Of a DNA stretch of 64,000 nt, positions 1 through 64,000 are shown in pieces; within the stretch, counting starts at the first letter, position 1, and the number at the start of each line of letters is the position of its first letter. The notes below the pieces were generated by a model. That model made no database searches, was not told the DNA's origin, and saw only the letters and a program-made list of their open reading frames with translations. A program made the position numbers and the translations under genes. This stretch comes from Azolla caroliniana. Its lineage: Eukaryota; Plantae; Polypodiophyta. The DNA is taken from contig JBHGNT010000020.1 in assembly GCA_043228905.1 (NCBI GenBank), positions 930,001 to 994,000 on the forward strand. Reading direction: 5' to 3'.

Positions 1-325
1 TTCTTGAAAGCATTAACCAACGTTTCAATATTCTGCAAGGGCAAGCTATGACCTTTAAAGTGATACTCGAATTGGATAGACAAAATGTATTCCATAGATT
101 CGAGAATATAAAATTGTTGAATGACTTTCATAATTAGATTGTAAGAACAAGAGATAAAAATGATTTAATCTGTTGAATAGCCTACATAGCTTGGTTTTGT
201 GGATTTCTTTCATTTGTATGCGAGAGGAAAGTATAGGACTCCCATAATTATATGACCACCCAACAATAATTTTATCTTGCCTATTTTAAGTTTCTGATAA
301 GCTTCCAAAGTAGTAGATTGAAATT

Positions 326-397
326 GCGCTTGTAGTCCAACGGTTAGGATAATTGGCTTCCAAGCAATAGACCCGAGTTCAACTCTCGGCAAGTGCA
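326..397 (+). tRNA. tRNA-Gly(TCC) variant (G3:U70, mismatch at the base of the anticodon stem); possible pseudogene
   Basis: GCGCTTG...ATTGG-CTTCCAA-GCAAT...CAAGTGCA. Confidence 0.55.
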
Positions 398-825
398 TAC
401 CATGTTATTTCAACCCTTTCGTAATGTTACGTTCTTCGAAAGTTTCACTAGAAGAGGTTAAAACGTCTCCAACAAATTGAAGTACAGATTGAAAGCAATT
501 ACCAACGTTTCAATATTCCGCAAGCGAATGTTATGTCCTTTAGTGCGATACTCGAATTGGATAGACAAAACGTATTCGATAGATTCGAGAATATAAAATT
601 GTTGAATGATTTTCATAATTAGATTATAAGAACAAGAGATAAAAATGAATTAATCTGTTGATTAGCTTACATAGCTTGGTTTTGTGGATTTCTTTCATTT
701 GTATGCGAAAAGAAAGTAAGGTTCAGTTTTTATTCGTACAGGTATAGGACTCCCATAAATATGCGACTACTCAACAATAATTTTATCTTGCCTATTTTAT
801 GTTTCACATAAGCACTAGAAGTATC

Positions 826-897
826 GCGCTTGTAGTCTAACGGTTAGGATAATTGCCTTCTAGGCAATAGACCCGAGTTCAACTCTCGGCAAGTGTA
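826..897 (+). pseudogene. tRNA-Gly-derived copy with anticodon TCT
   Basis: Anticodon loop CT-TCT-AG; acceptor 3' strand CAAGTGT gives two G:U pairs. Confidence 0.6.
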
Positions 898-3800
898 TAC
901 CATGTTATTTCAACCAGTACTCACGATCTAAAACAGAAATCTATTCAAGTCCCCTTCGTAATGTTACGTTCTTGCAGTTCTTGCAGAGTTTCATTGGCAG
1001 AGGTTAAACTGTTTCCAACAAATTGAAGTCCTATAAATAATTTGTCCAGAAACTGTTTTAATAAACTAGATACGTTTTTATCTTATAAGAAACTTAGAAT
1101 CACCTTTTGGTCACTCACATAAATCATAGAAAACATTAAGCACTCAGGTTTGATATGAGATATTTGTGCGACTTTAGAAGTATAATTAGAATATTTTTTT
1201 TCAATGCAATAAGCAACGTTTCAATATTCCGCAAGCGCATGCTATGTCCTTTAGAGCGGTACTCAAATTGGATAAAAAAAATGTATTCGATAGATTCGAG
1301 AATATAAAATTGTTCACTAACATTCATAAGTAGATTGTAAGAACAGGAGATCAAATTGAATTAATCTGATGAGTAGCTTACATATGTTGTTTAAGTGGAT
1401 TTCTTGCATTTTTATGCGAGAAGAAAGTAAGGTTCAGGTTTTATTCGTATAGGTATACGACTCCCATAATTATGCGACTACTCAACAATAATTTTATCTT
1501 GTGTATTTTATGTTTTTGATAATGTTCCACTGGAAGTAGGTGGAAATTGCGCTTGTAGGCCAACGGTTAGGTTAATTCCCTTCCAAGCAATAGACACGAG
1601 TTCAACTCTCGACAAGTGCATGCCATGTTATTTCAATCAGTACTCAGGATATAAAAGAGAAATCTATTGAAATCCGTTTTATAATGTTATGTTCTTCAAT
1701 AGTTTCATTAGCAATAAATTAAAGTCCTATAAATTGAAGTTCAAATTGAAAGCAATAACCAACGTTTGAATATTCCGCAAATGCATGTTTTGTCCTTTAG
1801 AGCGGTACTCGAATTGGATAAACAAAATCTATTCGATGACTTTCATAATTAGAGAGTTTCAATATTCCGAAGGCGCACGCTATGTCCTTTAGAGCGGTAC
1901 TTCAATTGGATAAACAAAATCTATTCGATTAGATTCGAGAATATAAAATTGTTGGATGAGTTTCATAACTACATTGTAGGAACAAGAGATCAAATTAAAT
2001 TATTCTGATGTTTAGCTTAAAAAGGCTATTTTTGTGGACTTGTTTCATGTGTATGCGAGAAGAAAGTAAGCCTCACTATTTGTTCGCTCAGGTATAGGAC
2101 TAACATTTACATGCGACTACTCAACAATAATTTTCTCTCCTATATTTTTTGTTTTTGACAAACTTCCCTTCGAAGCAAGGTTAAATTGTGCTTGTAGTCC
2201 AACGGTTAGGATAATTGCCTTCCAAGCAATAGATCCGAGTTCAACTCTAGCCCTACATTTACGATATTTTTCTTGAAAGCAATAGACTACGTTTCATAAC
2301 TAGATTCTAAGAACACGGGAAAAAATTGAATTAATAAGATATATTGCTCAAATAAGCTATTTTTAAGGACTTCTTTCATTTGTATGCTAGAAGAATGTAA
2401 GGCTTACTATTCGTTCACTTAAGTAACAATTGGTAAAGGTTAAGGACTAACATTGATATGCAAGTACTCCACAATACTTTTACCATGTATGTGTTTTGTT
2501 TGCGATGAAATTACGTTGGAAGTAGGCTCAAATTATGCTTGTAGTCCATAATAATCGTGAGTTCAACTCTCGGCAAGCGCACACCATGTTATTTCAAGCA
2601 CTACTTACTATCGAAAAGAGAAATATATTCAATTCCCTTCGACAATTTCACGTTATTGGAGAGTTTCATTAGCAGAGTTTAAAAACTCTCCAACAAATTG
2701 AATTCTTATAAATATTTGGTCATAAAACGGTCTCTCTAAACTAGTTTCGTTCTTATCTTATAAAGAATGTTAGAGTCACCCTTAGCTCTCTCTCATAAAA
2801 AAAGGTAAAGATCAAGGACTCAAGTTCATGTGAGATATTTGTGCGCCTGTAGGCCTAATTTTAGGATATTTTTCTTCCAAGAAATAGACCATGTTTGAAC
2901 ATTCCTCAACAACACGCTATGTGTTTTAGAGTAGTACTTCAATTGGACATGCAAAATCTATACGATTTGATTCGAGAATATAACATTGTTGGACGAGTTT
3001 CATAACTAGATTGCAAGAACATGGGAAAAGATTGAATTAATCTTATGTTTAAGTCAAAGAAGTTGTTTTTGTGGAATTGTTTGATTTATATGCGAGAAGA
3101 AAGTAAGGCTCAATATTTATTCGCATATGTGTAGGACACACATTTATATGCAACTACTCAACAATAATTTTATCTTTTCTATTTTTTGTTTTTAATAAAC
3201 TTCCATTGGAAGCAGGTGGAAATGGCGCTTGTCTATTCAAGTCCCTTTGATAATTTTATCTTGACTATTCAAGTCCATTTGATAATGTCACGTTCTTCGA
3301 GAGTTTCACAAGTAGAGGCTAAAAAGTCTCCAACAAATTGAATTCCTATAAATATTTGGTCGAAAAAGGGTTTCACTAAACTAGATTCGTTTTTATCTGA
3401 TAAGAAAGTTCGGGTCACCTCTTGCTCGCTCACATAAAACATGGTAAAGATTAAGGACTTAGGTTTGATATGAGATATTTGTGCGGCTTTAGCCGTACAA
3501 TTAGGATATTTTTGTTGAAAGCAATAACCAACGTTTCAATATTCCAAGCGCAAGCTATGTCCTATCGAGCGGTATTTCAATTCGATAAAAAAAATCTATT
3601 CAATTCGATTCGAGAATATAAAAGTGCTCTATAAGTTTCATAACTTGATTGTAAGAAGACAAGATCAAATTGAGTTAATCTGATGTTTCTCTTAAACAAG
3701 CTACTTATTCGCACATGTATAGGACACATTTATATGCGACTAATCAACTATAATTTTATCTTGTCCATTTTTTGCTTTTGATAAACTTCCCTCGGAAGCA

Positions 3801-5684
3801 AGTTTAAATTGCGCCTGTAGTCCAATAGTTAAGATAATTGCCTTCCAAGCAATAGACCTGAGTTCAACTGTCGACAAGCGTATACCATGTTATTTCAAAC
3901 AGTACTGGGGATCTAAAATAGAAATCTATTCAAGTTCCTTTGAGAATGTCACGTTCTTTCAAAGTTTCACTAGTAGAGGTTAAAAAGTCTCCAACAAATT
4001 AAATTCCTATAAATATTTGCTCCAAAAATGGTTTTACTAAACTAAATTCATTTTTATCTTATACGAAACTTACAGTCACCTTTTAGTTGGTCACATAAAA
4101 CATGCAGAAGATTTAAGACTCAGGTTTGATATGAGATATTTGTGCGGCTATAGCCCTACAATTAGGATATTTTTCTTGAAAGCAATAACTAACGTTTCAA
4201 TATTTCGCAAGCCTAAGCTATATCCTTTAGAGCGGTATTTTAATTGGATAAACAAAATCTATTCGATTAGATTCGAGAATATAAAATTGTTGGATGATTT
4301 GCATTACTAGATTGTAAGAACACGAGATCAAATTGAATTAATATGATGTTTAGCTTAAACAAGCTGTTTTTATGTACTTGTTTCATTTGTATGCAAGAAT
4401 AAAGTAAGGTTCACTATTTATTCGCTCAGGTATAGCACTCACATTTATATGCGACTACTCAACAATAATTTTATCTTGTGTATTTTTTGTTTTTGATAAA
4501 CTTCCAATCAACAATCAGGTTGAAATTGTGCTTGTAGTCCAACGGTTAGGATAATTGCCTTCCAAGCAATAGACCCGAGTTCAACTCTCTGCAGGCGGAT
4601 ACCACCTTATTGCAACCAGTACTCACGATCTAAAAGAGAAATCTATTCAAGTCTCGTTGATAATGTCACGTTCTTCGAGAGTTTCATTAGCAGAGGTTAA
4701 AAAGTCTCCAACAAATTGAAGTCCTATAAATATTTGGTCCAAAAACGGTTTTAATAAATTAGATTCGTTTTTATCTTATCAGAAACTTAGGGTCACCTTT
4801 TGGTCGCTCACATAAAACATAGAAAACATTAAGGACTCAAGTTTGATATGAGATATTTGTGTAGCTTTAGTCATACAATTAAGATATTTTTCTTGAAAGC
4901 AATAACCAACGTTTCAATATTCCGCAAGCGCAAGCTATATCCTTTAGAGCGGTATTTCAATTGGATAAACAAAATCTATTCGATTAGATACGAGAATATA
5001 GAATTGTTGGATAAGTTTCATAACTAGATTATAAGAACACAGGTATAGGAGTCACATTTATATGTGACTACTCAACCATAATTTTATTTTGTATATTTTT
5101 TATTTTTAACAAACTTCCCTTGGAAGTAGGTTTAAATTTTGCTTGTAGTCCAACGGTTAGGATAATTGCCTTCCAAGCCACACACCCGAGTTCAACTCTC
5201 GGCAAGCCCATACCATGTTATTTCATCCAATACTCACGATCTAAGAGAGAAATCTCGTCAAGTCCCTTTGATAATGTCACGTTCTTTGAGAGTTTCATTA
5301 CCAGATGTTAACAAGTCTCCAACAAATTGAATTCCTCTAAATATTTGGTCCAAAAACGGTTTCAATAAACTAGATTCGTTTTTATCTTTATAAGAAACTT
5401 CGGGTTAGCTTTTGCTCACTCACATAAAACATGGAAAAGATTAAGGACTCAGGTTTTATATGAGATATTTGTGCGGCTATTGCCGTATAATTAGGTTATT
5501 TTTCTTGAAAGCAATAACCCACGTTTCAATATTTCGCAAGCGCACCCTATGTGCTTTACAACGGTATTTCAATTGGATAAACAAAATCTATTCAAGTTTA
5601 TTCGAGAATATAAAATTGTTGGATGAGTTTCATAACTAGATTGTAAGAACATGAGATCAAATGGAATTAATCTGATGTTTAGCT

Positions 5685-6214
5685 TCGTGTGATAGGTTCA
5701 ATTGACCTCTTCTACCGCCGCGACCTCGTCCTCGATCACCGTCCGAATTCGAGAAGAACATTTGTCCTTCCGAATTCAAGAAGAACATTGATTGGAGTTC
5801 AAAGAATGAAGAATGGTTTTCTCTCGCCAAGATTGTCGTCTGGAATGGATCGAATTGTTGTGCGAGGCCGCCCAACCATACTTGGACCATCTCGTCTTCG
5901 TCGATGTTTATGTTGATGGAGCCAAGTGAGTTGCAAATGCTCTTAATCTGGGCGGTTTAGTCCAACAGGGACATGTCTTTTTGTAGAATGTTATTCAACT
6001 CTTGTCGGAGTTGAAGCTTGCGGGAGGTCGTGTTGGCGGCGAACATTTTCTTTAAGTTCTCCCACGCATCTTTGGGCGTCTTGGTGTCTGGAATGTTGCT
6101 AAGCATGTGGTCGTGGACACATGTTGCCAACCAATACATGACTTGACTCGCCGCTTGCTCCGATGTTGTCGGGTCAATTGTCTTGAACGCCGTTGATGTA
6201 GCTCCAATACCCAT
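5685..6214 (-). pseudogene. gag: Disrupted copia gag (Retrotran_gag_2/UBN2-like)
   Basis: ORF 5957-6214 (KTPKDAWENLKKMFAANTTSRKLQLRQELNNILQKDMS) and ORF 5657-5890 (LGGL...FQTTILARENHSSFFELQS...RGRGRGGRRG) are typical copia gag motifs broken by a frameshift/stop. Confidence 0.82.
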
Positions 6215-6470
6215 GGCTAACGAGGTATTGGGTCATCTTGTACTCCCAAGATGAATAATTGCTGCAGTCTTGCTTTTCACTAGGGAGCAAGCTACGCATT
6301 TGTGTGGTCATGTTGATTGTAGTGTCTTCTCTTCTTTTGCTTTTCTTCCTTCGATCATGTACACGTGCTACGTAGCGGCACTACGGTAGTCGATATCCGA
6401 ATTTTGTCGTTAGCGTCTCGAATACACAATCACAGAGTTGGGTGGGCTTAGGGGATTTTGTAAACCACAC

Positions 6471-6482
6471 GCTCTGATACCA
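6471..6482 (-). promoter_or_regulatory. Primer-binding site for initiator tRNA-Met
   Basis: Canonical TGGTATCAGAGC directly after the LTR terminal CA. Confidence 0.9.
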
Positions 6483-6592
6483 TGTTAAGAATTAGGTGAT
6501 TAATTAAGCAAGGGCTAATTAGTACCTAATTATGTGATTAGTTGATAGACGGAAGATTAAGTGATATGTGTGTGTTTATGTGTGTGAAAAGA

Positions 6593-6629
<37 letters not shown>

Positions 6630-6642
6630 TAGAGAGAGAGAG
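6593..6642. repeat. (GA)n microsatellite in the copia LTR
   Basis: Imperfect AG dinucleotide run, also present in copies 2 and 3. Confidence 0.9.
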
Positions 6643-9600
6643 ACCGAGATACGCTTATGAACAACACAAGATGGGGGATGAGTAACTATATTAGATTAGC
6701 ATCAACATCATCATCAAATACAAAAATACCTACAATGAGGTATATATAGATCTCATGTGCAAGGGTGCACATGTGTGAGGATAATATACGTACAAACGTG
6801 TAAGTCCTATATTAAATGTACTTGGGAGTGGAGGATCTAGAATATCCCACTTATGTACAAGGTACTATTTAAGGAGTTATAGTCAACACTTCTAACTAGA
6901 TTCTATCTAGGTAACTATGAAGTTACATGGTTGACTAACTAACTAAAGTAAGTTGAGCTTGATCTCTCAAGAAGCTCAAACAAGTTGTTTTTGTGGACTT
7001 TTTCATTTGTATGCTAGAATACAGTAGGGCTCACTATTCGTTCGCTTAGGTAACAATTGGTAACGGTTAAGGACTCACATTGATATGCAAGTAGTCCACA
7101 ATACTTTTATCTTGTATATTTTTTGTTTGTGATGAAATTCCATTGGATGTGGGCTCAAATTACGTTTGTAGTCTAACGGTTAGGATAATTGCCTTCCAAG
7201 CAATAAACCCGAGTTCGACTCTCGACAAGCGCACACCATGTTATTTCAACCACAACCTACGATCAGAAAGAGAAATCCATTCAATTCCCTTTGACAATGT
7301 GACATTGTTCAAGAGTTTCAGTAACAGCGTCTAAAAACTCTCCAACAAATTGAATTCCTATAAATATTTGGTCAAAAAACGGTTTCTCGAAACTAGTTTC
7401 ATTTTTATCTTATAAGTATGTTAGGGTCAACTTTTGCTCGCTCAGATAAAACATGGTAAAGATTAAGGACTCAGGTTCAAATGAGATATCTATGCCCTTG
7501 TACCCCTACAATTAGGATATTTCTCTAGAAAGCAATAGGCCAGGCTTCGACATTCCGCAAGCGCTTTTTGTGGAAAGCAATAGACTAGGTTCGTATAAGA
7601 TATCTATGCCCCTATATCTCTACAGTTAGGATATTTTTCTGGAAAGCAATAGACCAGGCTTCAACATTCTGCAATAGAGTAGGCTTCGACCACGCTATAT
7701 GCTTTAGTGTAGTACTTCAATTGGACAAGAAATATATATACGATTCGATTCAAGAATATGACATTGCATGACGAGTTTAATAACTAGATTGTAAGAACAC
7801 ACAAACAAATTGAATTAATCTGATGTTTAGCTCAAACAAGCAGTTTTTTGGACTTGTTTCATTTGTATGCTAGAAGAAAGTAAGGCTGACTATTCGTTCG
7901 CTCAGGTAACAATTGGTAAAGGTTCAGGATTCACATTGATATGCAACTGTTCCACAATAATTATATCTTGTATATTTGTTGTTTGTGATAAAATTCCCTT
8001 GTAAGTAGGCTCAGATTGCACTTGTAGTCCACCAGTCAGGATAATTGCCTTCCATGCAATAGACCCGAGTTCAACTCTCGGCAAGCACACACCATGTTAT
8101 TTACACCACTACTTCAGATAACCACTACTTAAGATGCAAAAGTGAAAACTTTACAATTCCCTTACACGGAGTGTAAAAAGTCTCCAACAAATTGAATTCC
8201 GATAAATCTTTCGTCAAACAATCGTTTCTATAAACTAGTTTCGTTTGTATCTTATAAGAACGTTATGGGCACCTTTTGCTCGCTCACATAAAAAATGTTA
8301 AAGATTATGGACTTAGGTTGATATGAGATATTTGTGAGGCTGTAGCCCTACATTTAGGATATTTTTCTTGAAAGCAATAGACCACGTTTCATAACTAGAT
8401 TCTAAGAACATGGGAACAAATTGAATTAATCAGATGTTTAGCTCAAACAAGCTATTTTGAAGAACTTGTTTTATTTGTATGCTAGAAGAAAGTAAGGCTC
8501 ACTATTAGTTCGCTCAGGTAACAATTGGTAAAGGTTAAGGACTGAGATTGATATGCAAGTACTCCACAATACTTTTATCTTGTATATTTTTTGTTTGTGA
8601 TGAAATTCTATTGGAAGTAGGCTCAAATTATGGTTGTATTCCAACGGTTTGGATAATTGCCTTCCAAGCAATAAACTCTAGTTCAACTCTCGGCAACTAC
8701 ACACTATGTTCTTTCAACCACTACTTACTATCGAAAAGAGAAATCTATTTGATTCCCTTCAACAATTTCACGTTGTTGGAGAGTTTCATTAGTAGAGTTT
8801 AAAAACTCTCCAAGAAATTGAATTCTTATAAATATTTTGTCATAAAACGGTTTCTCTAAACTAGTTTCGTTTTTATCTTATAAGAATGTTTGGGTCACCC
8901 TTTTCTCGCTCTCATAGAAAAAGGTAAAGATTAAGGACTGAGCTCGTATGAGATATTTGTGCGCCTGTAGGCCTAATTTTAGGATATTTTTCTTCAAAGC
9001 AATAGACCACGTTTGAACATTCCGCAAACGCACGCTATGTGCTTTAGAGCAGTACTTCATTTGGACATAGAAAATCTATACGATTTGATTCGAGAATATA
9101 ACATTGTTGGACGAGTTTCATAGCTAGATTGCAAGAACACGGGAATAGATTGAGTTAATCTTATGTTTAAGTCAAAGAAGTTGTTTTTGTGGACATGTTT
9201 CATTTGTATGCTAGAAGAAAGTAAGGCTCACTGTTCCTTTGCGCAAGTAACAATTGGTAAAGGTTAAGGACTCACATTGGTATGCATCTACTCCACAATA
9301 ATTTTATCTTGTATATTTTTTGTTTGTGATAAAATTTTATTGGAAGCAGGCTCAAATTGTGCTTGTAATTCAACGGTTAGGATAATTGTCATCCAATCAA
9401 TACACCCCAGTTCAACTCACGGCAAGAACACACCATGTTATTTCAACCATTACTTACTATTGAAAAGAGAAATATATTCAATTCCCTTCGATAATGTCAC
9501 GTTACTCAACAGTTTCATTAGCAGAGTATCAAAACTCTCCAACAAAATGAATTCCTATAAATATTTGGTCACCCTTTCGGTTTCTCAAAACCAATTTCAT

Positions 9601-11543
9601 TTTTATCTTATAAGAATGTTAAGTAACCCTTTGTTCACTCACATAAAAAAAGGTAAAGATTAAGAACTCAGGTTCATATCAAATATTTGTGTGCCTGTAG
9701 CCCAAATTTTAGGATATTTTTCTTGAAAGCAACTCTCCAGCAAATTGAATTCCTATAAATATTTGGTCAAAAAACAGTTTCTCAAAACTACTTTCGGTTT
9801 TATCTTATAAGAAGGTTAGGGTCGCCTTTTGCTCACTCACAGAAAACATGGTAAAGATTAAGGGCTCAGGTTTGATATGACATATATGTGCGCCTTTAGC
9901 CCTACAATTAGGATATTTTTCTATAAATCAATAGCCTACATTTCAACATTCCGCAAGCACACACTATGTCCTTTAGAGCGGTACTTCAATTGGATAAACA
10001 AAATCTATTCGATTTGATTCGAGAATATAAAATTGGTGGATGAGTTTCATAACTAGATTGTAAGAACACGAGAACACATTGAATTAATTTGATGTTTAGC
10101 TGAAAGAAGCTGTTTTGTTGGACTTGTTTCATTTGTATGCTAGAAGAAAGTAAGACTCAGTATTTGTTCGCTCAGGTCACAATTGGTAAAGGTTAAGGAA
10201 TGACATTCATATGCAACTACTGAGAAATAATTTTATCTTGTAAATTTTTTATTTTTGGTAAACATCGATTGAATGTAGGTTCAAATTGCGCTTGTAGTCC
10301 AATGGTTAGGGTCCAAGCAATAGACCCGAGTTCAACTCTCGGCAAGCGCATACCATGTTATTTCAAGCAATAATTTTATCTTGTCTATTTTTTGTTTTTG
10401 ACAAACTTCCATTGGAAGCAACTGGAAATGGCACTTGTAGTCCAATGGTTAGGATAATTGCCTTCCAAGCAATAGACCCGAGTTCAACTCTCTAGAAGCG
10501 CATACCATCTTACACACGATCTAAAAGGGAATTCTATTCAAGTCCCTTTGATAATGTTACGTTCTTCGTGGGTTTCATTAGCAGAGGTTACAGAGTCTCC
10601 AACAAATTGAAGTCCTATAAATATTTTCTCCAAAAACTGTTTTAATAAACTAGATTCGTTTTCATCTTATAGGAAACTTAGGGTTACCTTTTGGTTGCTG
10701 ACATAGAACATAGAAAATATTAAGGACTCAGGTTTGATATGAGATATTTGTGTGGCTTTAGCTGTACAATTAGGATATTTTTGTTGAAAGCAATAACTAA
10801 CGTTTCAATATTCCGCAATCTCAAGCTATGGGCTATAGAGTGGTACTCAAATTGGATAAACAAAATGTATTTCATAGATTCGAGAATATAAAATTGTTCA
10901 ATAACTTTCATAACTACATTATAAAATTCTGCAAGCACATGCTATGTCCTTTAGAGCGGTACTTCAATTGGATAAACAAAATCTATTCGATTCGATTCGA
11001 GAATAGAAATTTGGTGGATGAGTTTCATAACTAGATTGTAAGAACACGAGAACACATTGAATTAATTTGATGTTTAGCTAAAAGAAGCTGTTTTGTTGGA
11101 CTTGTTTCATTTGTATGCTAGAAGAAAGTAAGACTCAGTATTTGTTCGCTCAGGTCACAATTGGTAAAGGTTAAGGACTGACATTCATATGCAACTACTC
11201 AGAAATAATTTTATCTGGTAAATTTTTTATTTTTGGTAAAGATCGATTGAATGTAGGTTCAAATTGCGCTTGTAGTCCAACGGTTAGGGTAATTGCCTTC
11301 CAAGCAATGGACCCAAGTTCAACTCTTGGCAAGCGCATACCATGTTATTTCAATCACTACTTACAATCTAAAAGAGAAATCTAGTCAAGTCCCTTCGACA
11401 ATGGCACGTTCTTCAAGAGTTTCATAAGCAAGGTTTAAGAACTCTACAACAAATTGAATTCCTATAAATATTTAGTCAACAATAATTTAATGTTGTAACT
11501 TTTTTGTTATTGATAAACTTCCCATTCGAAGTAGGGTCAAATT

Positions 11544-11615
11544 GCGCTTGTAGTCCAACGGTTAGGATAATTGCTTTCCAAGCAATAGACCCGAGTTCAA
11601 CTCTTGGCAAGCGCA
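11544..11615 (+). tRNA. tRNA-Gly(TCC), near-intact
   Basis: Full cloverleaf with U32 and a G51:U63 wobble. Confidence 0.6.
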
Positions 11616-13690
11616 TACCATATTATTTCAACCACTACTAACGATCTAAAAGAGAAATCTATTCAAGTCCCTTCGACATTCTCACGTTCTTCGAGGGTTT
11701 TATTAGCAGAGTCTAAAAACTATCCAACAAATTGAATTCCTATAAATATTTAGTCAAAAAACTGTTTCTCTAAACTAGTTTCGTTTTTATCATGTAAGGG
11801 TCACCTTTTGCTCGCTGACATAAAAAATGGTACACATTATGGACTTAGCTTAATATGAGATATTTGTGTGCCTATTGCCCTACAATTAGGATATTTTTCT
11901 TGAATGCAATAGACCACATTTCAACATTCCGCAAGTGCACGCTATGTGCCTTAGAGCAGTACTTGCATTGGATAAAGAAGTCTATCCGATTCGATTCGAC
12001 AATATGACATTGGTCGATGAGTTTGGTAAGTAGATTGTAAGAATATGGGAACAAATTGAATTAATATGATGTTTAGCTCAAACAAGCTATTTTTGTAGGC
12101 TTGCTTCATTTGTATGCTAGAAGAAAGTAACACTCAATATTCGTTCACTCATGTAACAATTGGTAAAGGTTAAGGACTCACATTAATATGCAACTACTCA
12201 AAAATAATTTTATCTTGTATATTTTTTTGTTTTTGATAAACTTCGATCGAATGTAGGTTCAAATTGCTCTTGTAGTCCAACGATTAGGATAATTGCCTTA
12301 CAAGCAATAGACCCGAGTTCAACTCTCGGCACGCGGATACCATGTTAGCCCTACAATTAGGATATTTTTTGTTTTTGATAAATTTCCATTCGAGGCAGGG
12401 TCAAATTGCGCTTATAGTCCAACAGATAGGATAACTACCTTCCAAGAAATAGACCCGAGTTCAACACTCCGCAAGCGCACACCATGTTATTTCAAAAATT
12501 ACTCATGATATAAAAGAGAAATCTATTCAAGTCCCTTCGACAATGTAAAGTTCTTCGAGAGTTTCATTAGGAGAGTCTAAAAACTCTCCAACTAATTGAA
12601 TTCCTATAAATATTTGGTCAAAAAACGTTTTGTCTAAACTAGTTTCGTTTTTATCTTATAAGAAAGTTAGGGTCACCTTTTGCCCGCTCACGTAAAACAT
12701 GGTGAAGATTAAGTACTCAGGTTTGATATGAGATATTTGTGCGTGTTTAGCCCTAAAATTAGGATATTTTTCTTGAAAGCAATAGCCCACATTTCAACAA
12801 TCCACAAGGGCACGATATGTCCTGTAGAGTGGTACTTCAATTGGATAAACAACATCTATTCGATTCGATTTGAGAATATAAAATTGCTACATGAGTTTGA
12901 TAACTAGATTGTAAGAACACGAGAACAATTTGAATTAGTCTGATGCTTAGCTCAAACAAACTAATTTTGTGGACTTGTTTCATTTGTATGCAAGAAGAAA
13001 GTAAGGCTCACTATTTGGTCGCTTAGGTATAGGAGTCACATTTATATGCAGCTACTCAACAATAATTTTATCTCATATATTTTTTGTTTTTGATAAACTT
13101 CCCTTGGAAGCATGTTTAAATTTTGCTTGTAGTCCAATGGTTAGGATAATTGAATTAATCTGATGTTTAGCTCAAACAAATTGTTTTTGTAGGCTTGCTT
13201 CATTATTATGCTAAAAGAAAGTAACGGTCAGTATTCGTGCGCTCATGTAACATTTGGTAAACGTGAAGGACTCACATAGATATGCCATTACTCAACAATA
13301 ATTTTATCTTGTATATTTTTTATTTTTGACAAATTTCGATTATATGTATGTTCAAATTGCACTTGTAGTCCAACGGTTAGGATAATTGCAAACAATAGAC
13401 CCGACTTCAATTCTCGGCAAGCGCATACCATGTTAGCCCTACAATAAGGATATTTTTTTTGAAAGTAATAGCCCACGTTGTAATATTCTGCAAGCGTACG
13501 TTATGTCCTTTAGAGCGGTACTTCAATTGGATAAACAAAATCTATTCGATTAGATACGAGAATACAGAATTGCTGGAGGAGTTTCATAACTAGATTGTAA
13601 TAACACGAGATCTAATTGAATTAATATGATGTTTAGCTTAAACAAGTTGTTATTGTGGACTTGTTTCAGTTGTATGAGAGAAGAAAGTAA

Positions 13691-14488
13691 AAGAAGGAAT
13701 TAGTACTAAAAGAAGTATTAGTACTAAGAGAGTTGAAGAACTCTCGAGAGAAGGAAAGAGTGAGTGAGAGAGAGGGAGAGTGAGTGAGAGAGAGAGAGTG
13801 ATGATAAGAAAAGATATATATTATGTGAAGAAAATGTACAGTAGCTAGGAGGCTTAAGACTGGCATTGAAACGATTTGGTTCGAAATAATGCATTGTGCC
13901 TCCTTTTATAGTGTTCTAAGGAATACTCCTGAAGTTTCTAGAATGTTCTAGAGAAATCTAGAATATACATAGATTTTCTATAATAAAACATAAATGAAAA
14001 TAATATTCTACGTATTACAACGTATAGTCTAATGGTCAAGAGCTCGACCCATGTAGCATAAGGTCATGGCTTCGAGTCTTGCCATATCATGACATCAATC
14101 TTCCTATCACCAACTCATTTCCCCCTTTATCACCACCCCCCCTATCATCAAGATCTTCCACCTTAAATCCTTATAGCCTTCCGTCTATTTACACTCTTAT
14201 TACACCCCACTCACTATGATTATACTTTCCCTCTTTCTCCTCCCTTCCCCATTCTCAACATCCTATATAAACCACCATTTGTATTTCCATGACCTTTTGC
14301 ACTGATGAGCTCTAAGCGAGCGAAACTAGTTTGCTGCATAAGGTCTTTCCTTTCATTTTAATGAAAACTTCTTGAGTCTGTGTGTGTGTGTGTGTGTGCG
14401 CGCTTAGAATCTCTTCTTTTACTATTACATTATCTACTATCTCACAAAGTCGCATGCACTCCTTGCTACAACGGAACGGTTAATAACA
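13691..14488 (+). mobile_element. LTR-like insertion (5'-truncated solo LTR?)
   Basis: Non-satellite ~800-bp block interrupting a monomer at GAAAGTAA/AGGCTCA. Contains a GA tract, TATATAAA at ~14264 and (TG)n at 14379-14398, and ends TAATAACA. No clear 5' TG or clean TSD. Confidence 0.55.
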
Positions 14489-15691
14489 GAAAAGGCTCAG
14501 TATTTATTCGCACAGGTATAAAACACACATTTATATGCGACTACTCCATAATAATTTTATCTTATATATTTTTTGTTTTCAATGAACTTCCATTGTAACC
14601 AACTGGAAATGGCGCTTGTAGTTCAATTGTTAGGATAATTGCCTTCCAAGCAATAGACCCGAGTTCACCTCTCGGCAAGCGCATACCATCTTATTTTAAC
14701 CAGTACTCACAATCTAAAAGAAAAATCTATTCAAGTCCCTTTGATAATGTCATGGTCTTCGAGAGTTTCATTAGCAGAGGTTAAAAACTCTCCAACAAAT
14801 TGAAGTCCTATAAATATTTGGTCCAAAAACAGTTTTAATAAACTAGATTAGATTTTATCTTATAAGAAACTTAGGGTCAACTTTTGGTCGCTCACATAGA
14901 TCATAGAAAACATTAAGGACTCAGGTTTGATAAGAGATATTTGTACGGCTTTAGCCCTACATTTACGATATTTTTTTTGAAAGCAATAACCAACGTTTCA
15001 ATATTCCGCAAGCGCAAGCTATGTCCTTTAGAGCGGTACACGAATTGGATAAACAAAATGTATTCGATAGATTCGAGAATATAAAATTGTTCAATGACTT
15101 TCATAAGTAGATTGTAAGAACACGAGATCAAATTGAATTAATCTGATGATTAGCTTACATAGGTTGTTTTTGTGGATTTCTTTCATTTGTATGCGAGAAG
15201 AAAGTCAGGTTCAGTTTTTATTCACACAGGTATGGGACTCCCATAATTATGCGACTACTCAACAATAATTTTATCTTGCGTATTTTAAGTTTCTAATAAG
15301 CTTCCACTGGAAGTAGATGGAAATTGTGCTTGTAGTCCAACGGTTAGGATAATTGTCTTCCAAGCAATAAACCTGAGTTCAACTCTCGGCAAGTGCATAC
15401 CATGTTATTCAACCAGTACTCACGATCTAAAAGAGAAATCTATTCAAGTCCCTTTCATAATGTTACGTTCTTCGAGAGCTTCGTTACGTTCTTCGAGAGT
15501 TTCATTAGAAAAGGTTAAAACGTCTCCGACAAATTGAAGTCCCATAAATATTTGGCCCAAAAACGGTTTTTAGAAACTAGATTCGTTTTTATCTTATAAG
15601 AGACTCACATTTATATGCGACTACTCAACAATAATTTTATCTTGTGTATTTTTAGTTTTTGATAAACTTCCATTAGAATCAAGTTAAAATT

Positions 15692-19119: not shown

Positions 19120-19123
19120 ACTG

Positions 19124-51308: not shown

Positions 51309-52055
51309 TGTTGGGAAACAGGTCCCTCCGGATGGGAAGGAAGAAGATCAGTGACGATGAACAAACCCGGTGAAGACCGGATGAGGAGTACCTGGCTACG
51401 GAGAGCCGGATGATACAGACCCGGTGTGAACCGGATGAGGAGTACCCGGCTACGGAGAGCCGGATGGTGCAGGCCCAGTATGAACCGGATGAGGAGTACC
51501 CGGCTACGGAGAGCCGGATGGTGCAGGCCCGGTATGAACCGGATGAGGAGTACCCCGCTACGGAGAGCCGGATGGTGCAGACCCGGTATGAACCGGAGGA
51601 AGAGACATATTCGTAAATATGTTTCGGAGAGCCCATTCTGGCTATATTTGTAAATAGCCGAAAAGTCATATTAGTATAAATATGACTTAGGGCAAACTAA
51701 TATTGGGTTGTTGTCAATTTTTCTGTATTACACGATATTAGTGTGCGTAACGTTGTACACAAAAAGAGAGAGAGAGAAAGAGGTCGCTGCCTCTGTTGTA
51801 ACCGCCGCCTGTGGCGAAGAGCGTGAGTCCGAGGTCGTTGCCTCCGTGAACTCACTGTTTTGTACATTCATACATAGTGACAGTTTGCAGCCTGTGGGCT
51901 GCCGTGGTTTTTCCTCTAGTTTGGGGTTTTCCACGTAAACCTCCTGTGTACCATTTCTCTTCTTTGTGTCGCGTTTCATTACCTGTTTTTCTGTGTATGA
52001 AAAGAATCTCGGTTGTGGCCGAGTCTTGCGCATAAGGAACGACAAGTTCCTGTTA
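51309..52055 (+). mobile_element. Solo LTR (copia-like), 747 bp
   Basis: TGTTGG...CCTGTTA (terminal CA read as TA); TSD GAAAC at 51304-51308 and 52056-52060; TATAAATA near 51675; GTGGTTTTTCC...GGGTTTTCCACGTAAA motif; empty paralogous sites at 5394 and 48671. Confidence 0.88.
51377..51598 (+). repeat. 4 x 54-bp CCGG-rich tandem repeat in LTR U3
   Basis: CCGGATGAGGAGTACC recurs at 51377, 51431, 51485 and 51539. Confidence 0.92.
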
Positions 52056-53609: not shown

Positions 53610-55739
53610 AGCTCAAACAAGTTGTTTTTGTGGACTTGTTTCATTTGTATGCTAGAATACAGTAGGGCTCACTATTCGTTCTCTTAGGTAACAATTGGTA
53701 ACGGTTAAGGACTCACATTGATATGCAAGTAGTCCACAATACTTTTATCTTCTATATTTTTTGTTTGTGATGAAACTCCACTGGAAGTGGGCTCAAATTA
53801 CGCTTGTAGTCTAACGGTTAGGATAATTGCCTTCCAAGCAATAAACCCGAGTTCAACTCTCGACAAGCGCACACCATGTTATTTCAACCACAACCTATGA
53901 TTGGAAAGAGAACTCCATTCAAATCCCTTTGAGAATGTGACATTGTTCAAGAGTTTCAGTAACAGAGTCTAAAAACTCTCCAACAAATTGAATTCCTATA
54001 AATATTTGGTCTTAAAATGGTTTCTCAAAACTACTTTCGGTTTTAGGGTAAGAACACGGAAACAAATTGAATTAATCTAATATTTAGCTCAAACAAGCTG
54101 TTTTTATGGACTCGTTTCATTTGTATGCTAGAAGAAAGTAAGCCTCACTATTCGTTCGCTCAGGTAACAATTGGTAAAGGTTAAGGACTCACATTGATAT
54201 GCAAGTTCTCTAGAATACTTTTATCTTGTATATTTTTTGTTTGTGATGAAATTCCACTGGAAGTAGGCTCAAATTACGCTTCAGGTCCAACGGTAAGGAT
54301 AATTGCCTTCCAAACAATAAAACCGAGTTCAACTCTCGGCAAGCGCACACCATGTTATTTCAAGCACTACTTATTATCGATTCAATTCCTTTCGATAATG
54401 TCACGTTGTTGGAGAGTTTCATTAGCAGAGTTTAAAAATCTATACCACGTTTAAAAAGCAATAGACCACGTTTGAACAGACCGGAAGCGCACGTTATGTG
54501 CTTTAGAGCAGTACTTCAATTGGACACGCAAAATCTATACGATTTGATTCGAGACTATAACGTTGTTGGACGAGTTTCATAACTAAATTGCAAGAACACG
54601 GGAATAGATTGAATTAATTTGATGTTTAGGTCAAACAAGCTGTTTTTGTGGACGTGATTCATTTGTATGCTAGAAGAAAGTAAGGCTCACTATTTCTTCG
54701 CTCAGGTAACAATTGGTAAAGGTTAAGGACTCACATTGATATATAACTCGTATACAATAATTTTATCTTGTATATTTTTTGTTTGTGATAAAAATCCATT
54801 GGAAGGAGGCTCATATTGCGCTTGTATTCCAATGGTTAGTATAATTTCCTTACATGAAATAGACCTGAGTTCAACTCTCGGTAAGCGCACATCATCTTAT
54901 TTCAACCACTACTTACGATCGAGAAGAGAAATCTATTTAATTCCCTTCGACAATGTCACGTTGTTCGAGAGTTTCATTAGTAGAGTCTAGAAACTCTCCA
55001 ACAAATTAAGTTCTGATAAATATTTGGTCAAAAACGGTTCCTAAAACTAGCTTCATTTTATCTTATAAGAATGTTACGGTCACCTTATGCTCGCTCACAT
55101 TAAAAATGGTAAAGATTAAGGACTTAGGTTCATATGAAATATTTGTGCGCCTGTAGTCCTACAATAGACCACATTTCAACATTCCGCAAGCGCACTCTAT
55201 TTACTTTAGTGCAGTACTTCAATTGGATAAACAAAATCTATTCGATTGGATTCAAGAATATGACATTGTTCGATGAGTTTCATAACTAGATTTCAAGAAC
55301 ATGGGAACAAATTGAATTAATCTGATGTTTAGTTGAAACAAGTTGTTTTTGTGGACTTTTTTCATTTGTATGCTACAAGAAGGTAAGGCTCACTTTTCGT
55401 TCACTCATGTAATGATAGGTAAAGGTTAAGGACTAAAATTGATATCCAACTACTCAACAATAACTTTATCTTGTATATTGTTTGTTTGTGATAAAACTCC
55501 CTTGTGCGTACGTTCATATTGTGCTTGTAATCCAACGGTTAGGATAATCTCCTTCCAAGGAATAGAACTGATTTCAACTCTCAGCAAGCGCACACCATGT
55601 TATTTACAACACTACTTTAGATGGAAAAGCAAAAAAAATTCCAATTCCCTTCGACAAAGTCACGTTGTTGGAGAATTTCATTAGCGCAGTGTAAAAACTC
55701 TCCAGCAAATTGAATTCCTATAAATATTTGGTCAAAAAA

Positions 55740-56497
55740 TGACAGGAACTACACGCATTAATCTCCGGAAACAACCGAAACAAAATCACTAAGTACTACA
55801 CGCTCTGCTAAATCAATGCTCAGTCACAACCGAGTCTAGGATCAAACAGAGAAAAAATGGGAATGAAATGCACGACACAGAGAAGAGAAGAGTGCATAGG
55901 ATGGTTAATGTGGAAAACCCTAAGAGGGAAAAACCACGGCAGCCCACAGACTGCAAACTATCACTATATCACAATGATTACAACAGTGAGCTCACGGAGG
56001 CAGCGACCTCGCGCTCACGATCTTCGCCACAAGCGGCGGTTACAACAGAGGCAACGACCTCTTCCTCTCTCTCTCTCTCTCTCTCTGTACACTGTTACGC
56101 GCTCTCTGATCTAGCGCCAACAAGAATGACAACAACAAAATAAAAGAGTTTGCCCTAAGTCATATTTATACTAATATGACTTTCCGGCTATTTACAAATA
56201 TAGCCCCGATGGACTCTCATAAACATATTTACGAATATGTCCCTTCATCCGGTGAGCACTCCTCACCGGGCTTGCATCATCCGGCACTTGCCGGGCACAT
56301 GTCATCCGGTTCTCACCGGGTCTTCACCTTCCGGCTCTTGCCGGGTACTCGTCATCCGGTTCTCACCGGGTCTTCTGTTGCCAGGTACTTGTCATCCGGT
56401 TCTCACCGGGTCTTCCGTAGCCGGGTCTTCCACATCTGGTTTGCTTATCAGTACTGTTCCTTATCACTTCCCATCCGGAGGGACATGTTTCCTAACA
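55740..56497 (-). mobile_element. Solo LTR, 758 bp, related to 51309-52055 in opposite orientation
   Basis: TGACAGGAACT...CCTAACA; TSD AAAAA; reverse complement shares TATA region and U5 motifs with the 51309 LTR; empty paralogous site at ~9769. Confidence 0.88.
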
Positions 56498-59758: not shown

Positions 59759-62218
59759 TACCATATTATTTGAACCACTACTTACGATCTAAAAGAGAAA
59801 TCTATTCAAGTCCGTTCGACATTCTCACGTTCTTCGAGGGTTTCATTACCAGAGTCTAAAAACTCTCCAACAAATTGAATTGCTATAAATATTTAGTCCA
59901 AAAATGGTTTCTCTAAACTAGTTTCGTTTTTATCATGTAAGGGTCACCTTTTGCTCACTGACATACAAAATGGTATAGATTATGGACTCACCTTGATATG
60001 AGATATGTGTGTGCCTATTGCCCTACAATTAGGATATTTTTCTTGAATGCAATAGACCACATTTCAACATTCCGCAAGTGCACGCTATGTGCCTTAGAGC
60101 AGTACTTGCATTGGATAAACGAACTCTATCCGATTGGATTCGACAATATGACATTGGTGGATGAGTTTGGTAACTAGATTGTAAGAACATGGGAACAAAT
60201 TGAATTAATATGATGTTTAGCTCAAACAAGTTTTTTTTGTAGGCATGCTTCATTTGTATGCTAGAAGAAAGTAACGCTCAATATTCGTTCGCTCAGGTAA
60301 CAATTCGTGAAGGTTAAGGACTCACATTAATATGCAACTACTCAAAAATAATTTTATCTTGTATATTTTTTTATTTATTCTGATAAACTTCGATTGAATG
60401 TAGGTTCAAATTGCTGTTGTAGTCCAATGATTAGGATACTTTCCTTCTATGCAATAGATCCGAGTTCAACTCTCAGCAAGCGGATACTATGTTAGCCCTA
60501 CAATTAGGATATTTTTTGTTTTTGATAAATTTCCATTCAGGGCAGGGTCAAATTGCGCTTGTAGTCCAACGGTTAGGATAACTGCCTTCCAAGCAATAGA
60601 CCCGAGTTCAACTCTCAGCAAGGGCATACCATGTTATTTCAACAATTACTCATGATATAAAAGAGAAATCTATTCAAGTCCCTTCGAAAATGTAAAGTTC
60701 TTCGAGAGTGTCATTAGGAGAGTCTAAAAACTCTCCAACTAATTGAATTCCTATAAATATTTGGTCAAAAAACATTTTGTCTAAACTAGTTTCGTTTTTA
60801 TCTTATAAGAAAGTTAAGGTCACCTTTTGCTCGCTCACGTAAAACATGGTGAAGATTAAGTACTCAGGTTTGATATGAGATATTTGTGCGCGTTTAGCCC
60901 TACAATTAGGATATTTTTCTTGAAAGCAATAGCCCACGTTTCAACAATCCACAAGGGCACGATACGTCCTGTAGAGTGACACTTCAATTCGATAAACAAC
61001 ATCTATTCGATTCGATTTGAGAATATAAAATTGCTACATGAGTTTGATAACTAGATTGTAAGAACACTAGAACAAATTGAATTAGTCTGATGCTTAGCTC
61101 AAACAAACTAATTTTGTGGACTTGTTTCATTTGTATGCAAGAAGAAAGTAAGGCTCACTATTTGTTCGCTCAGGTATAGGATTCACATTTATATGCAGCT
61201 ACTCAACAATAATTTTATCTCGTATATTTTTTGTTTTTGATAAACTTCCCTTGGAAGCATGTTTAAATTTTGCTTGTAGACCAACAGTTAGGATAATTGA
61301 ATTAATCTGATGTTTAGCTCAAACAAGTTGTTTTTGTAGGCTTGCTTCATTAGTATGCTCAAGGAAAGTAACGGTCAATATTCGTGCGCTCATGTAACAT
61401 TTGGTAAAGGTTAAGGACGCACATAGATATGCAATTACTCAAAAATAATTTTTTCTTGTATATTTTTAATTTTTGATAAATTTCGATTGAATGTATGTTC
61501 AAATTGCACTTGTAGTCCAACGGTTAGGATAATTGCCTTACAAACAATAGACCTGAGTTCAACTCTCGGCAAGCGCATACCATGTTATTTCAACCAGTAC
61601 TCACGATCTACAACAGAAATTTGTTGAAGTTTCTATCGTAATGTTACGTTCTTCGACAATTTCATTAGCAGAGGTTTAAATGTCTCCAACTAATTGATGT
61701 CCTATAAATATTTTGTGCAAAAACCGTTTGAATAAACAAGATTCCTTTTTATCTTATAAGAAACAAAGCGTCACCGTCTGGTCGCTCACATAGAACATAG
61801 AAAACATCAAGGAGTCAGGTTTGATATGAGATATTTGTGCGGCTTTAGCCTTACAAATAGGATATTTTTCTTGAAAGCAATAACCAACATTTCAATATTC
61901 CGCAAGCGCAAGCTATGTCCTTTACAGCGATACTCGAATTGGATAGACAAAATGTATTCGAAAGATTCGAGAATATAAAATTGTTGAATGACTCTCATAA
62001 TTAGTTATTAAGAACAAGAGATAAAAATAAATTAATCTGTTGATTAGCTTACATAGCTTGGTTTTGTTGATTTCTTTCATTTGTATGCGAGAAGAAACTA
62101 AGGTTCAGTTTTTATTCGTACAGGTATAGGACTCCCATAATTATGCGACTACTCAACAATAATTTTATCTTGCCTATTTTATGTTTCTCATAAGATTCCA
62201 CAGAAGTGGATGGAAATT

Positions 62219-62290
62219 GCGCTTGTAGTCCAACGGTTAGGATAATTGCCTTCCAAGCAATAGACCCGAGTTCAACTCTCGGCAAGCGCA
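62219..62290 (+). tRNA. tRNA-Gly(TCC), type A
   Basis: Same as 25779. Confidence 0.85.
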
Positions 62291-62914
62291 TACCATGTTA
62301 TTTCAACCAGTACTCACGATCTACAATAGAAATCTATTGAAGTCCCTGTCGTAATGTTACGTTCTTCGACAGTTTCATTAGCAAAGGTTTAAATGTCTCC
62401 AACAAATTGATGTCCTATAAATATTTTGTGCAAAAACCGTTTTAATAAACTAGTTTCCTTTTTATCTTATACGAAACATAGTGTCACCTTTTGGTCGCTC
62501 ACATAAAACATTGAAAACATTAATGACTCAGGTTTGATATGAGCCGTACAAATCAGGATATTTTCCTTCAATGCAATAACCAATATTTCAATATTCCGCA
62601 AGTGCAAGCTATGTCCTTTAGAGCGATTATCGAATTGGATAGAGAAAATGTATTCGATAGATTCGAGAATATAAGATTGTTGAATGATTTTCATAATTAG
62701 ATTGTAAGAACAAGAGATAAAAATGAATTAATTTGTTGATTAGCTTACAAAGCTTGGTTTTGTGGATTTCTTTCATTTGTATGCGAGAAGGAAGTAAGGT
62801 GCAGTTTTTATTCGTACAAGTATAGGACTCCCATAATTATGCGACTACTCAACAATAATTTTATCTTGCCTATTTTATGTTTCTCATAAGATTCCACAGA
62901 AGTGGATGGAAATT

Positions 62915-62986
62915 GCGCTTGTAGTCCAACGGTTAGGATAATTGCTTTCCAAGCAATAGACCTGAGTTCAACTCTCGGCAAGCGCA
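62915..62986 (+). tRNA. tRNA-Gly(TCC), type B
   Basis: Same as 25066. Confidence 0.75.
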
Positions 62987-63627
62987 TACCATGTTATTTC
63001 AACCAGTACTCACGATCTACAACAGAAATTTGTTGAAGTCCCTATCGTAATGTTACGTTCTTCGACAATTTCATTAGCAGAGGTTTAAATGTCTCCAACT
63101 AATTGATGTCCTATAAATATTTTGTGCAAAAACCGTTTGAATAAACAAGATTCCTTTTTATCTTATAAGAAACAAAGCGTCACCGTCTGGTCGCTCACAT
63201 AGAACATAGAAAACATCAAGGAGTCAGGTTTGATATGAGATATTTGTGCGGCTTTAGCCTTACAAATAGGATATTTTTCTTGAAAGCAATAACCAACATT
63301 TCAATATTCCGCAAGCGCAAGCTATGTCCTTTACAGCGATACTCGAATTGGATAGACAAAATGTATTCGAAAGATTCGAGAATATAAAATTGTTGAATGA
63401 CTCTCATAATTAGTTATTAAGAACAAGAGATAAAAATAAATTAATCTGTTGATTAGCTTACATAGCTTGGTTTTGTTGATTTCTTTCATTTGTATGCGAG
63501 AAGAAACTAAGGTTCAGTTTTTATTCGTACAGGTATAGGACTCCCATAATTATGCGACTACTCAACAATAATTTTATCTTGCCTATTGTAAGTTTCTCAT
63601 AAGCTTCGACTCAAGAAGATGGAAATT

Positions 63628-63699
63628 GCGCTTGTAGTCCAACGGTTAGGATAATTGCCTTCCAAGCAATGGACCCGAGTTCAACTCTCGGCAAGCGCA
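63628..63699 (+). tRNA. tRNA-Gly(TCC), GGAC variant
   Basis: Same as 37051. Confidence 0.8.
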
Positions 63700-64000
63700 T
63701 ACCATGTTATTTCAACCAGTACTCACGATCTAAAATAGAAATTTGTTGAAGTCCCTATCGTAATTTTACGTTCTTCGAGAGTTTCATTAGCAGAAGTTTA
63801 AATGTCTCCAACAAATTGATGTCCTATAAATATTTTGTGCAAAAACGGTTTGAATAAACTAGATTCCTTTTTATCTTATAAGAAACATAGCGTCACCTTC
63901 TGGTTGCTCACATAATACATTTATAATATTAAGGAGTCAGGTTTGATATGAGATATTTGTACGGCTTTCGCCGTACAATTAGGATATTTTTCTTGAATGC

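What the first reader, a model, noticed from the sequence alone, without database searches (positions are those of the whole stretch)
1..64000. A satellite DNA built from a tRNA-Gly(TCC) gene: about 85-90 copies in 64 kb, running off both ends
Seen: nearly every ~700-bp monomer holds a 72-nt tRNA-Gly(TCC) or a fragment of it, all on one strand, and more than 20 copies fold into a complete cloverleaf with A and B boxes. Known: plant tandem tRNA clusters exist (Arabidopsis chr1 Pro and Tyr-Tyr-Ser arrays, largely methylation-silenced), and tDNAs act as TFIIIC/condensin barriers (S. pombe centromeres). Inference: this array has satellite-style higher-order structure, so it could be a tRNA dosage locus, a tDNA-based structural domain (centromere or knob), or a neutral amplification.
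Basis: partly seen in the sequence, partly recalled or inferred. Interest (0 to 1): 0.85.

Follow-up and report, generated by a model that had tools for sequence, protein, structure and literature searches.

The report
Satellite-like glycine tRNA gene array
A plant (likely a fern) carries a tandem array of at least 85 copies of one glycine tRNA gene, most of them decaying, in which the tRNA stayed unchanged along the lineages that multiplied while the spacer drifted, so it is likely a real tRNA gene cluster renewed from working copies rather than junk satellite DNA, although expression is untested.

Summary
In detail: 85 tRNA-Gly(TCC) copies or fragments, all on the + strand, in a ~713-bp head-to-tail repeat open at both window ends; 29 of 79 near-full copies pass a strict cloverleaf check, 20 of them in a row in a homogenised core with a 696+713-bp higher-order unit. 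The live tRNA differs from the common plant gene at 5 sites, 4 of them two compensatory stem pairs. It mutates at spacer rate on terminal branches but hardly at all on internal branches (0.05 vs 0.39 +/- 0.08; 0 of 68 vs 58 of 444 fixed differences between subfamilies); the dead half behaves like spacer. So copies that seeded expansions were kept intact while most single copies decay: a birth-and-death tDNA cluster like the Arabidopsis Ser-Tyr-Tyr array, but larger, Gly-specific and satellite-like. Against current activity: no T4 terminator near the gene, and young copies lack the CAA motif. Expression, extent and centromere role are untested.

The parts
1..64000 (+). Tandem tRNA-Gly(TCC) array, ~713-bp monomer, open at both ends
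24370..37835 (+). Homogenised core: 20 consecutive intact tDNAs; alternating 696-bp (A) and 713-bp (B) monomers (1,409-bp unit, locally 2,818 bp) up to 37050
   Evidence: A monomers differ by 0-1 base; A vs B 39/559 in spacer, 2/72 in tRNA
25779..25850 (+). Reference intact tRNA-Gly(TCC) gene (72 nt, no intron, no encoded CCA); variant pairs C4:G68 and A51:T61 plus A56 (positions in the 72-mer)
25851..25868 (+). Conserved 18-nt trailer holding an interrupted T-run (T2-A-T3, 25858-25863), predicted weak Pol III terminator
   Evidence: 0 of 16 fixed differences; motif class from PMC3141230 section 14 (human Pol III)
26808..26879 (+). Decayed second tRNA-Gly of the monomer (monomer positions 334-405), 48/72 identical to the live gene in the consensus; does not fold
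61506..64000 (+). Start of a second copy of the core (3 intact tDNAs)
1..7564 (+). Degenerate block duplicated 43,253 bp downstream (43254-50841, 98.6% identical)
6985..13690 (+). Old monomer subfamily (75-80% to core), CAA upstream of the tRNA, spacer halves more alike; sister block at about 53622-61479
16325..19871 (-). Inserted LTR element: 748-bp LTRs 99.9% identical, 4-bp target duplication, one gag-like ORF (17025-19208), no pol
5686..6984 (-). Truncated LTR-element insert (LTR, primer site, start of gag; copia-like by eye only); copies at 48963-50259 and 52352-53621
13691..14491 (.). 801-bp insert with a hammerhead-ribozyme-like core (14289-14353, below Rfam threshold)
51309..52055 (.). 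Solo LTR with 5-bp target duplication
55739..56497 (.). Related solo LTR (75% identical, opposite orientation) with 5-bp target duplication

Best explanation
This is a tandem tRNA-Gly(TCC) gene cluster that likely grows by unequal crossing-over from copies whose tRNA gene was likely kept working by selection, while most single copies decay as pseudogenes. Shown: repeat structure, a nested history (a ~350-bp one-tRNA unit doubled to 713 bp with one half dying, then 713 bp doubled to a 1,409-bp unit, then 43-kb block duplication), near-zero tRNA change on internal branches, spacer-like change on terminal branches, and compensatory stem changes. Inferred: Pol III transcribes intact core copies from the internal A and B boxes, stops partly at the conserved T2-A-T3 trailer or reads on to the T4 at +134, and yields a variant tRNA-Gly(UCC), probably in a restricted or partly silenced way as for the Arabidopsis Ser-Tyr-Tyr cluster.
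For: tRNA is the least diverged 72-nt window of the monomer, observed/expected 0.41 after context correction, below all 570 non-tRNA windows. On trees built from spacer only, tRNA branch lengths are 1.25 terminal and 0.05 internal, against 1.13 +/- 0.16 and 0.39 +/- 0.08 (minimum 0.23) for 60 random held-out spacer sets; the dead half gives 1.16 and 0.32 (22 monomers; one search agrees: ratio 0.087 vs 0.26-0.48 in 9 windows, 25 monomers). Old vs young subfamily: 0 of 68 tRNA sites differ, 58 of 444 spacer, 6 of 59 dead half (Fisher P 0.0003 and 0.009). The dead half is an internal control of equal age (spacer halves homologous, E 4.5e-17). Four of five differences from the commonest plant gene form two compensatory pairs, one in the acceptor stem outside the promoter boxes. 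A second array with unrelated spacers shares the A51:T61 pair (L084). Head-to-tail structure recurs in two other runs and in L114.
Against: No expression data. 50 of 79 near-full copies are damaged and private mutations hit the tRNA at neutral rate (observed/expected 1.1). Only 6 of 77 copies have T4 within 30 nt (110 of 115 in control loci) and 16 of 77 have CAA within 10 nt upstream (88 of 115), none of them in the core; the controls are probably mostly flowering plants, where these motifs are enriched (PMC13437025). Core B copies carry two C-to-T changes and their lowest-energy fold is not a cloverleaf. The dead half is also somewhat under-diverged in the crude count (0.66). Recombination among monomers weakens any single tree, and the two subfamilies of 11 were picked by me from the tree.
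Confidence: 0.62

Rival explanations
1. Now-silent relic: selection acted in the past or on source copies elsewhere in the genome, and the array in this window, core included, is a methylated satellite that drifts in copy number.
For: Neutral private mutation rate in the tRNA; CAA lost and no nearby T4 in the young subfamily; CG sites mutate 2.7 times faster than A/T sites (0.264 vs 0.099); at least five retroelement insertions; Arabidopsis clusters are silent in most tissues (PMC7544208, passages) and were modelled as drifting in copy number (PMC2886086, abstract).
Against: The newest expansion is again of intact genes (20 of 20 in the core, against 9 of 59 elsewhere), and no tRNA change was fixed while the spacers diverged 13%. 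Non-CG C/G sites also mutate fast (0.19), so the methylation signal is weak.
Confidence: 0.2
2. Amplification bias: copies that still bind TFIIIC/Pol III stall forks or open chromatin and so recombine and expand more often; the DNA element, not the RNA, is what is conserved.
For: It predicts the same internal-branch pattern and needs no good terminator or CAA. tDNA clusters are described as fragile (PMC11700998, passages).
Against: Conservation covers the anticodon arm, acceptor stem and trailer, outside A and B boxes, and the 4:68 compensatory pair matters only in RNA.
Confidence: 0.1
3. Structural locus: a centromeric or knob satellite, or a TFIIIC barrier array.
For: Higher-order repeats and LTR insertions resemble (peri)centromeric DNA.
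Against: No direct evidence; plant tDNAs are depleted from centromeres (PMC13437025, passages); RNA-level conservation is not needed for this role.
Confidence: 0.08

Closest known systems
Arabidopsis Ser-Tyr-Tyr tDNA cluster (PMC12308677 abstract and section 7; PMC7544208 passages; PMC2886086 abstract)
   Same: Head-to-tail tDNA units, cluster-specific isodecoder, uniform core flanked by variable pseudogene-rich regions plus a second core block, one position of the unit decaying faster than the other, unequal crossing-over model.
   Different: SYY has 27 units in about 40 kb with canonical cis-elements; here one isotype (Gly-TCC), at least 85 units with both ends open, a fully dead second gene per unit, satellite-type higher-order repeats, retroelement inserts, and no canonical terminator.
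Plant tDNA homoclusters: Pro (dicots), Ile and Ala (maize), Gln (barley), Ile/Cys and mixed arrays of Ceratodon purpureus (PMC13437025 sections 10-12; PMC12652284 and PMC11700998 passages)
   Same: Single-isotype tandem clusters with homogeneous flanks.
   Different: No Gly-TCC homocluster among the plant rows I saw in Table S3 of PMC13437025 (places 1-32 of 86; plant TCC rows were Pro-dominated heteroclusters); reported identical-gene clusters reach 26-28 genes.
Entamoeba tRNA arrays (PMC2652664, abstract)
   Same: tRNA genes kept in tandem arrays whose spacers turn over between species, as between this array and L084.
   Different: Protist; nearly all tRNA genes arrayed, units uniform with microsatellite-like spacers; no comparable mass of dead copies described in the abstract.
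5S rDNA arrays under mixed concerted and birth-and-death evolution (PMC3123226, PMC3215682; search listing only)
   Same: Pol III gene conserved, spacer free, homogenised blocks beside pseudogenes.
   Different: Different gene and promoter type.
Azolla filiculoides tDNA expansion, 7,848 nuclear tRNA genes (PMC13437025 Table S1 row; PMC13578239 passages)
   Same: If the host is this or a related fern, arrays like this would account for the record count.
   Different: Host identity is a guess; the papers read attribute the count to duplication and repeats and do not describe such an array.

Membership tests
Plant tandem tDNA homocluster | At least 5 tDNAs of one isotype within 5 kb (definition of PMC13437025) | tested here: met
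   7 intact Gly-TCC genes per 5 kb in the core
Plant tandem tDNA homocluster | Same orientation and homogeneous flanks | tested here: met
   0 minus-strand copies; core monomers 92-100% identical
Plant tandem tDNA homocluster | Methylation-dependent silencing with conditional expression (shown for Arabidopsis) | not testable with these tools
   Only indirect: CG sites 0.264, CHG 0.228, CHH 0.192, A/T 0.099 divergence
Functional cytosolic tRNA-Gly(UCC) gene | Complete cloverleaf with TCC anticodon | tested here: met
   29 of 79 copies; up to 71.4 bits
Functional cytosolic tRNA-Gly(UCC) gene | GlyRS identity elements G1:C72, C2:G71, G3:C70, C35, C36, A73 (list recalled) | tested here: met
   Identical to the common plant gene at these sites
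Functional cytosolic tRNA-Gly(UCC) gene | Internal A and B boxes | tested here: met
   A box identical to the common gene; B box keeps its invariant bases but has three variant sites whose effect is untested
Functional cytosolic tRNA-Gly(UCC) gene | T4+ terminator close downstream and upstream CAA | tested here: not met
   6 of 77 and 16 of 77; an interrupted or full T-run within 30 nt in 65 of 77
Functional cytosolic tRNA-Gly(UCC) gene | Purifying selection | tested here: met
   Met on internal branches, not on terminal ones
Functional cytosolic tRNA-Gly(UCC) gene | Transcribed, processed, charged | not testable with these tools
   No raw RNA reads were on hand
Satellite DNA | Long head-to-tail array with higher-order repeats | tested here: met
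   1,409-bp and 2,818-bp units, 43-kb duplication; full extent unknown
Satellite DNA | Monomer free of gene-level constraint | tested here: not met
Centromeric satellite | CENH3 occupancy and centromeric position | not testable with these tools
tRNA-derived SINE | Dispersed copies with A- or T-rich tail and target duplications | tested here: not met
   Copies are head to tail with no tail or duplication seen (by inspection)

The most novel reading that the evidence does not exclude
In this fern lineage tRNA-Gly(UCC) is supplied rDNA-style from very large tandem arrays of a lineage-specific isodecoder that renew themselves in nested rounds (double the unit, let one gene die, re-expand from the working one). 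Such arrays would explain the record tDNA counts of water ferns, and, if the host is Azolla, whose plastid is reported to lack tRNA-Gly(TCC) (PMC13578239), the array could be the dosage source for tRNA imported into the plastid.
Probability: 0.15. Interest if true: 0.78.

Novelty: new variant of a known kind. Interest (0 to 1): 0.5.

Why it matters
Whether plant tDNA clusters are selected or drift is stated as open (PMC11700998, PMC13578239 passages). This array carries its own equal-age control, a dead tRNA copy inside every unit, and shows constraint on expanding lineages with neutral decay of single copies. Its five diagnostic bases make expression, charging and organelle import directly testable by tRNA-seq. 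It also blurs gene cluster and satellite, and warns that raw tDNA counts in such genomes are mostly pseudogenes (29 intact of about 160 tRNA-derived units here).

Tried and rejected
Run search: no RNA holder listed; the one run guessed to be RNA laid 0 contigs; neither is evidence on expression. Summed contig depth over the tRNA (7,000-11,000 in X1) far exceeds that over the spacer (220-1,900), which hints at many more copies with other spacers, but the tool states depth is no copy number. The variant table lists only central positions, so it could not show whether the host has the common form; one depth-2 contig in X14 looked like the common form. Homology of L084 spacers to this array's spacers: not detected (z at most 1.9). 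Global alignment of the two spacer halves was weak (z 2.2); local and profile tests were clear. Poisson P values on copy counts are inflated by shared ancestry and are not relied on. Retroelement targeting of tDNAs: five independent inserts all lie in spacer, which chance gives about one time in three; rejected as uninformative. Pfam found nothing in the 727-aa ORF; the other ORFs were treated as chance or antisense frames. A moss host was my first guess; earlier notes point to a fern. Earlier-finding look-ups by sequence, words and nearby place returned nothing on this array.
Full report
1. The observation. The window is a tandem array of a 72-nt tRNA-Gly(TCC) gene. ARAGORN finds 57 genes, Rfam 77 hits above threshold, and BLAST clustering 85 copies, 79 near-full and 6 fragments, none on the minus strand. 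The repeat covers 52,741 of 64,000 bases and is cut inside a monomer at both ends. Of the 79, 29 keep all tested stem pairs, invariant bases and the anticodon, 48 are damaged and 2 have indels. It is not an assembly artefact: an independent metagenome contig holds the same monomer (L114, 95-96%), and contigs of two runs with different organism labels show the 696-bp head-to-tail joint. Twelve listed runs from 7 studies hold the stretch or part of it; one of them may be the source of the window.

2. Anatomy. The monomer is 713 bp. A core (24370-37835) has 20 intact genes in a row, in alternating 696-bp A and 713-bp B monomers; ten A monomers differ by 0-1 base, six of ten B monomers are identical, and A differs from B at 39 of 559 spacer sites and 2 of 72 tRNA sites. 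Flanks are 75-90% identical to the core and often truncated. Bases 1-7564 recur 43,253 bp downstream at 98.6%, and the core starts again at about 61.5 kb. Seven inserts, 9.7 kb in all, are retroelement pieces from five independent insertions: a gag-only LTR element with 99.9% identical LTRs, a truncated element present three times through block duplication, two solo LTRs, and an 801-bp piece with a hammerhead-like core.

3. The tRNA. The three commonest forms (105 of 124) have T4, G51, G56, C61 and A68. The array gene has C4, A51, A56, T61, G68: two compensatory pairs and one purine swap. A51 with T61 occurred only in L114 (this satellite) and L084, a different tandem array with unrelated spacers. 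Among 77 window copies the common alleles are almost absent (G51 0, C61 0, T4 1, G56 1, A68 3), so conversion from common-type genes does not explain the conservation. Cis-elements are weaker than in the control loci: T4 within 30 nt in 6 of 77 against 110 of 115, CAA in 16 of 77 against 88 of 115, with CAA only in the old subfamily. An 18-nt trailer with T2-A-T3 is as conserved as the gene; motifs of this class are partial terminators for human Pol III (PMC3141230, section 14 read), and applying that to a plant is inference. CAA and poly(T) enrichment is reported as specific to flowering plants (PMC13437025, discussion), so the control is imperfect.

4. Selection. After removing segments at least 97% alike and correcting for CG, CHG, CHH and A/T context, the tRNA has 0.41 of expected divergence, below all 570 non-tRNA windows; singleton alleles are at 1.1 of expectation, distinct shared alleles at 0.53-0.57 (two rotations). 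With trees built from spacer only, tRNA branch lengths are 1.25 terminal and 0.05 internal; 60 random held-out spacer sets give 1.13 +/- 0.16 and 0.39 +/- 0.08 (minimum 0.23); the dead half gives 1.16 and 0.32 (22 of 31 long segments kept for coverage). Nine contiguous held-out windows agree (25 of 31). Between old and young subfamilies (11 segments each, picked from the tree) 0 of 68 tRNA sites, 0 of 16 trailer sites, 6 of 59 dead-half sites and 58 of 444 spacer sites differ. Reading: single copies decay neutrally once born, but the copies that founded expansions had intact genes. Caveats: recombination between monomers, one window only, and the dead half is itself at 0.66 in the crude count.

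5. Mechanism. Shown: nested duplication history, constraint on founding lineages, decay of the rest. Inferred: unequal crossing-over as the expansion route (modelled for the Arabidopsis array, PMC2886086 abstract); Pol III transcription from the internal boxes of core copies; partial or conditional silencing. The two changes in core B copies may be the start of a new round in which one gene of the doubled unit decays, but 2 against 0 is too few to claim. Confidence 0.62; rivals are a now-silent relic (0.2), recombination bias for TFIIIC-bound copies (0.1) and a structural locus (0.08).

6. Host. The gene is the land-plant nuclear type and the gag homologue clusters with Streptophyta proteins. 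Unreviewed earlier notes on this genome call it likely a fern and describe Sola-like transposons; I did not test that. Azolla filiculoides is rich in SOLA elements (PMC6786969, passage), has 7,848 nuclear tDNAs and is reported to lack plastid tRNA-Gly(TCC) (PMC13578239, passage). Azolla is therefore a guess at about even odds, and the plastid link is speculation; the missing plastid gene could also be an annotation gap (my own knowledge: it has an intron).

7. Known systems and novelty. It meets the definition of a plant tDNA homocluster and closely parallels the Arabidopsis Ser-Tyr-Tyr cluster, with a uniform core, pseudogene-rich flanks and a second core (PMC12308677, section 7). It works like 5S-type arrays under birth-and-death evolution. 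It has satellite architecture but fails the test of freedom from gene-level constraint; centromere membership is untestable here. Ten library searches returned no description of a plant Gly-TCC array or this repeat; I saw 32 of 86 TCC places in Table S3 of PMC13437025, and could not see the supplement of PMC12652284 or the Supplementary Discussion of PMC6786969, both of which may bear on novelty. Papers as seen: PMC13437025 abstract, passages, sections 10, 11, first part of 12, supplement rows; PMC13578239, PMC12652284, PMC11700998, PMC7544208, PMC6786969 and bioRxiv 10.64898/2026.09.17.752431 passages; PMC3141230 abstract and first part of section 14; PMC12308677 abstract and section 7; PMC2886086 and PMC2652664 abstracts; PlantRNA 2.0 preprint first part; others listing only.

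8. Verdict. Real, and more than a neutral satellite: a new variant of the plant tandem tDNA cluster, notable for isotype, size, satellite-like nesting and a built-in dead control. Interest 0.5; the most novel reading has probability 0.15 and would deserve 0.78.

Noticed in passing
window 14289-14353: Hammerhead-ribozyme catalytic core in an 801-bp insert (Rfam HH9, 20 bits, below the 52-bit threshold, E 0.3); resembles the terminal repeat of a Penelope-like element or retrozyme (label recalled).
   Followed up: partly
window 14018-14090 and about 16903-16968 / 19702-19767: A-box/B-box-like, tRNA-like stretches inside two different inserts, one within both LTRs of the gag-only element; not scored by Rfam at E 1.
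   Followed up: partly
window 16325-19871: Very young gag-only LTR element with a 4-bp target duplication and a primer site that looks like tRNA-Trp (recalled); homologues carry DUF4100.
   Followed up: partly
L084 1-741: A different tandem tRNA-Gly(TCC) array (3 copies, 299 and 369 bp apart) with the same A51:T61 T-stem but T4:A68 and unrelated spacers; the contig name gives coverage 57.
   Followed up: partly
run X1, tables 5 and 5c: Contigs with tRNA copies only about 100 bp apart, so the family also forms much shorter units.
   Followed up: no
window 826, 44079, 60413 (TCT); 12266, 54818, 61506 (TAC): Anticodon-shifted copies; the one at 826/44079 keeps all tested stems and would be a Gly-backbone tRNA reading AGA if expressed.
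   Followed up: no
monomer positions -60 to -51 before the tRNA: A 10-nt AT-rich block as conserved as the tRNA (mean divergence 0.03); possible TATA-like element.
   Followed up: no
L006, L027: Pairs of tRNA-Gly(TCC) genes 152 bp apart in two plant contigs.
   Followed up: no
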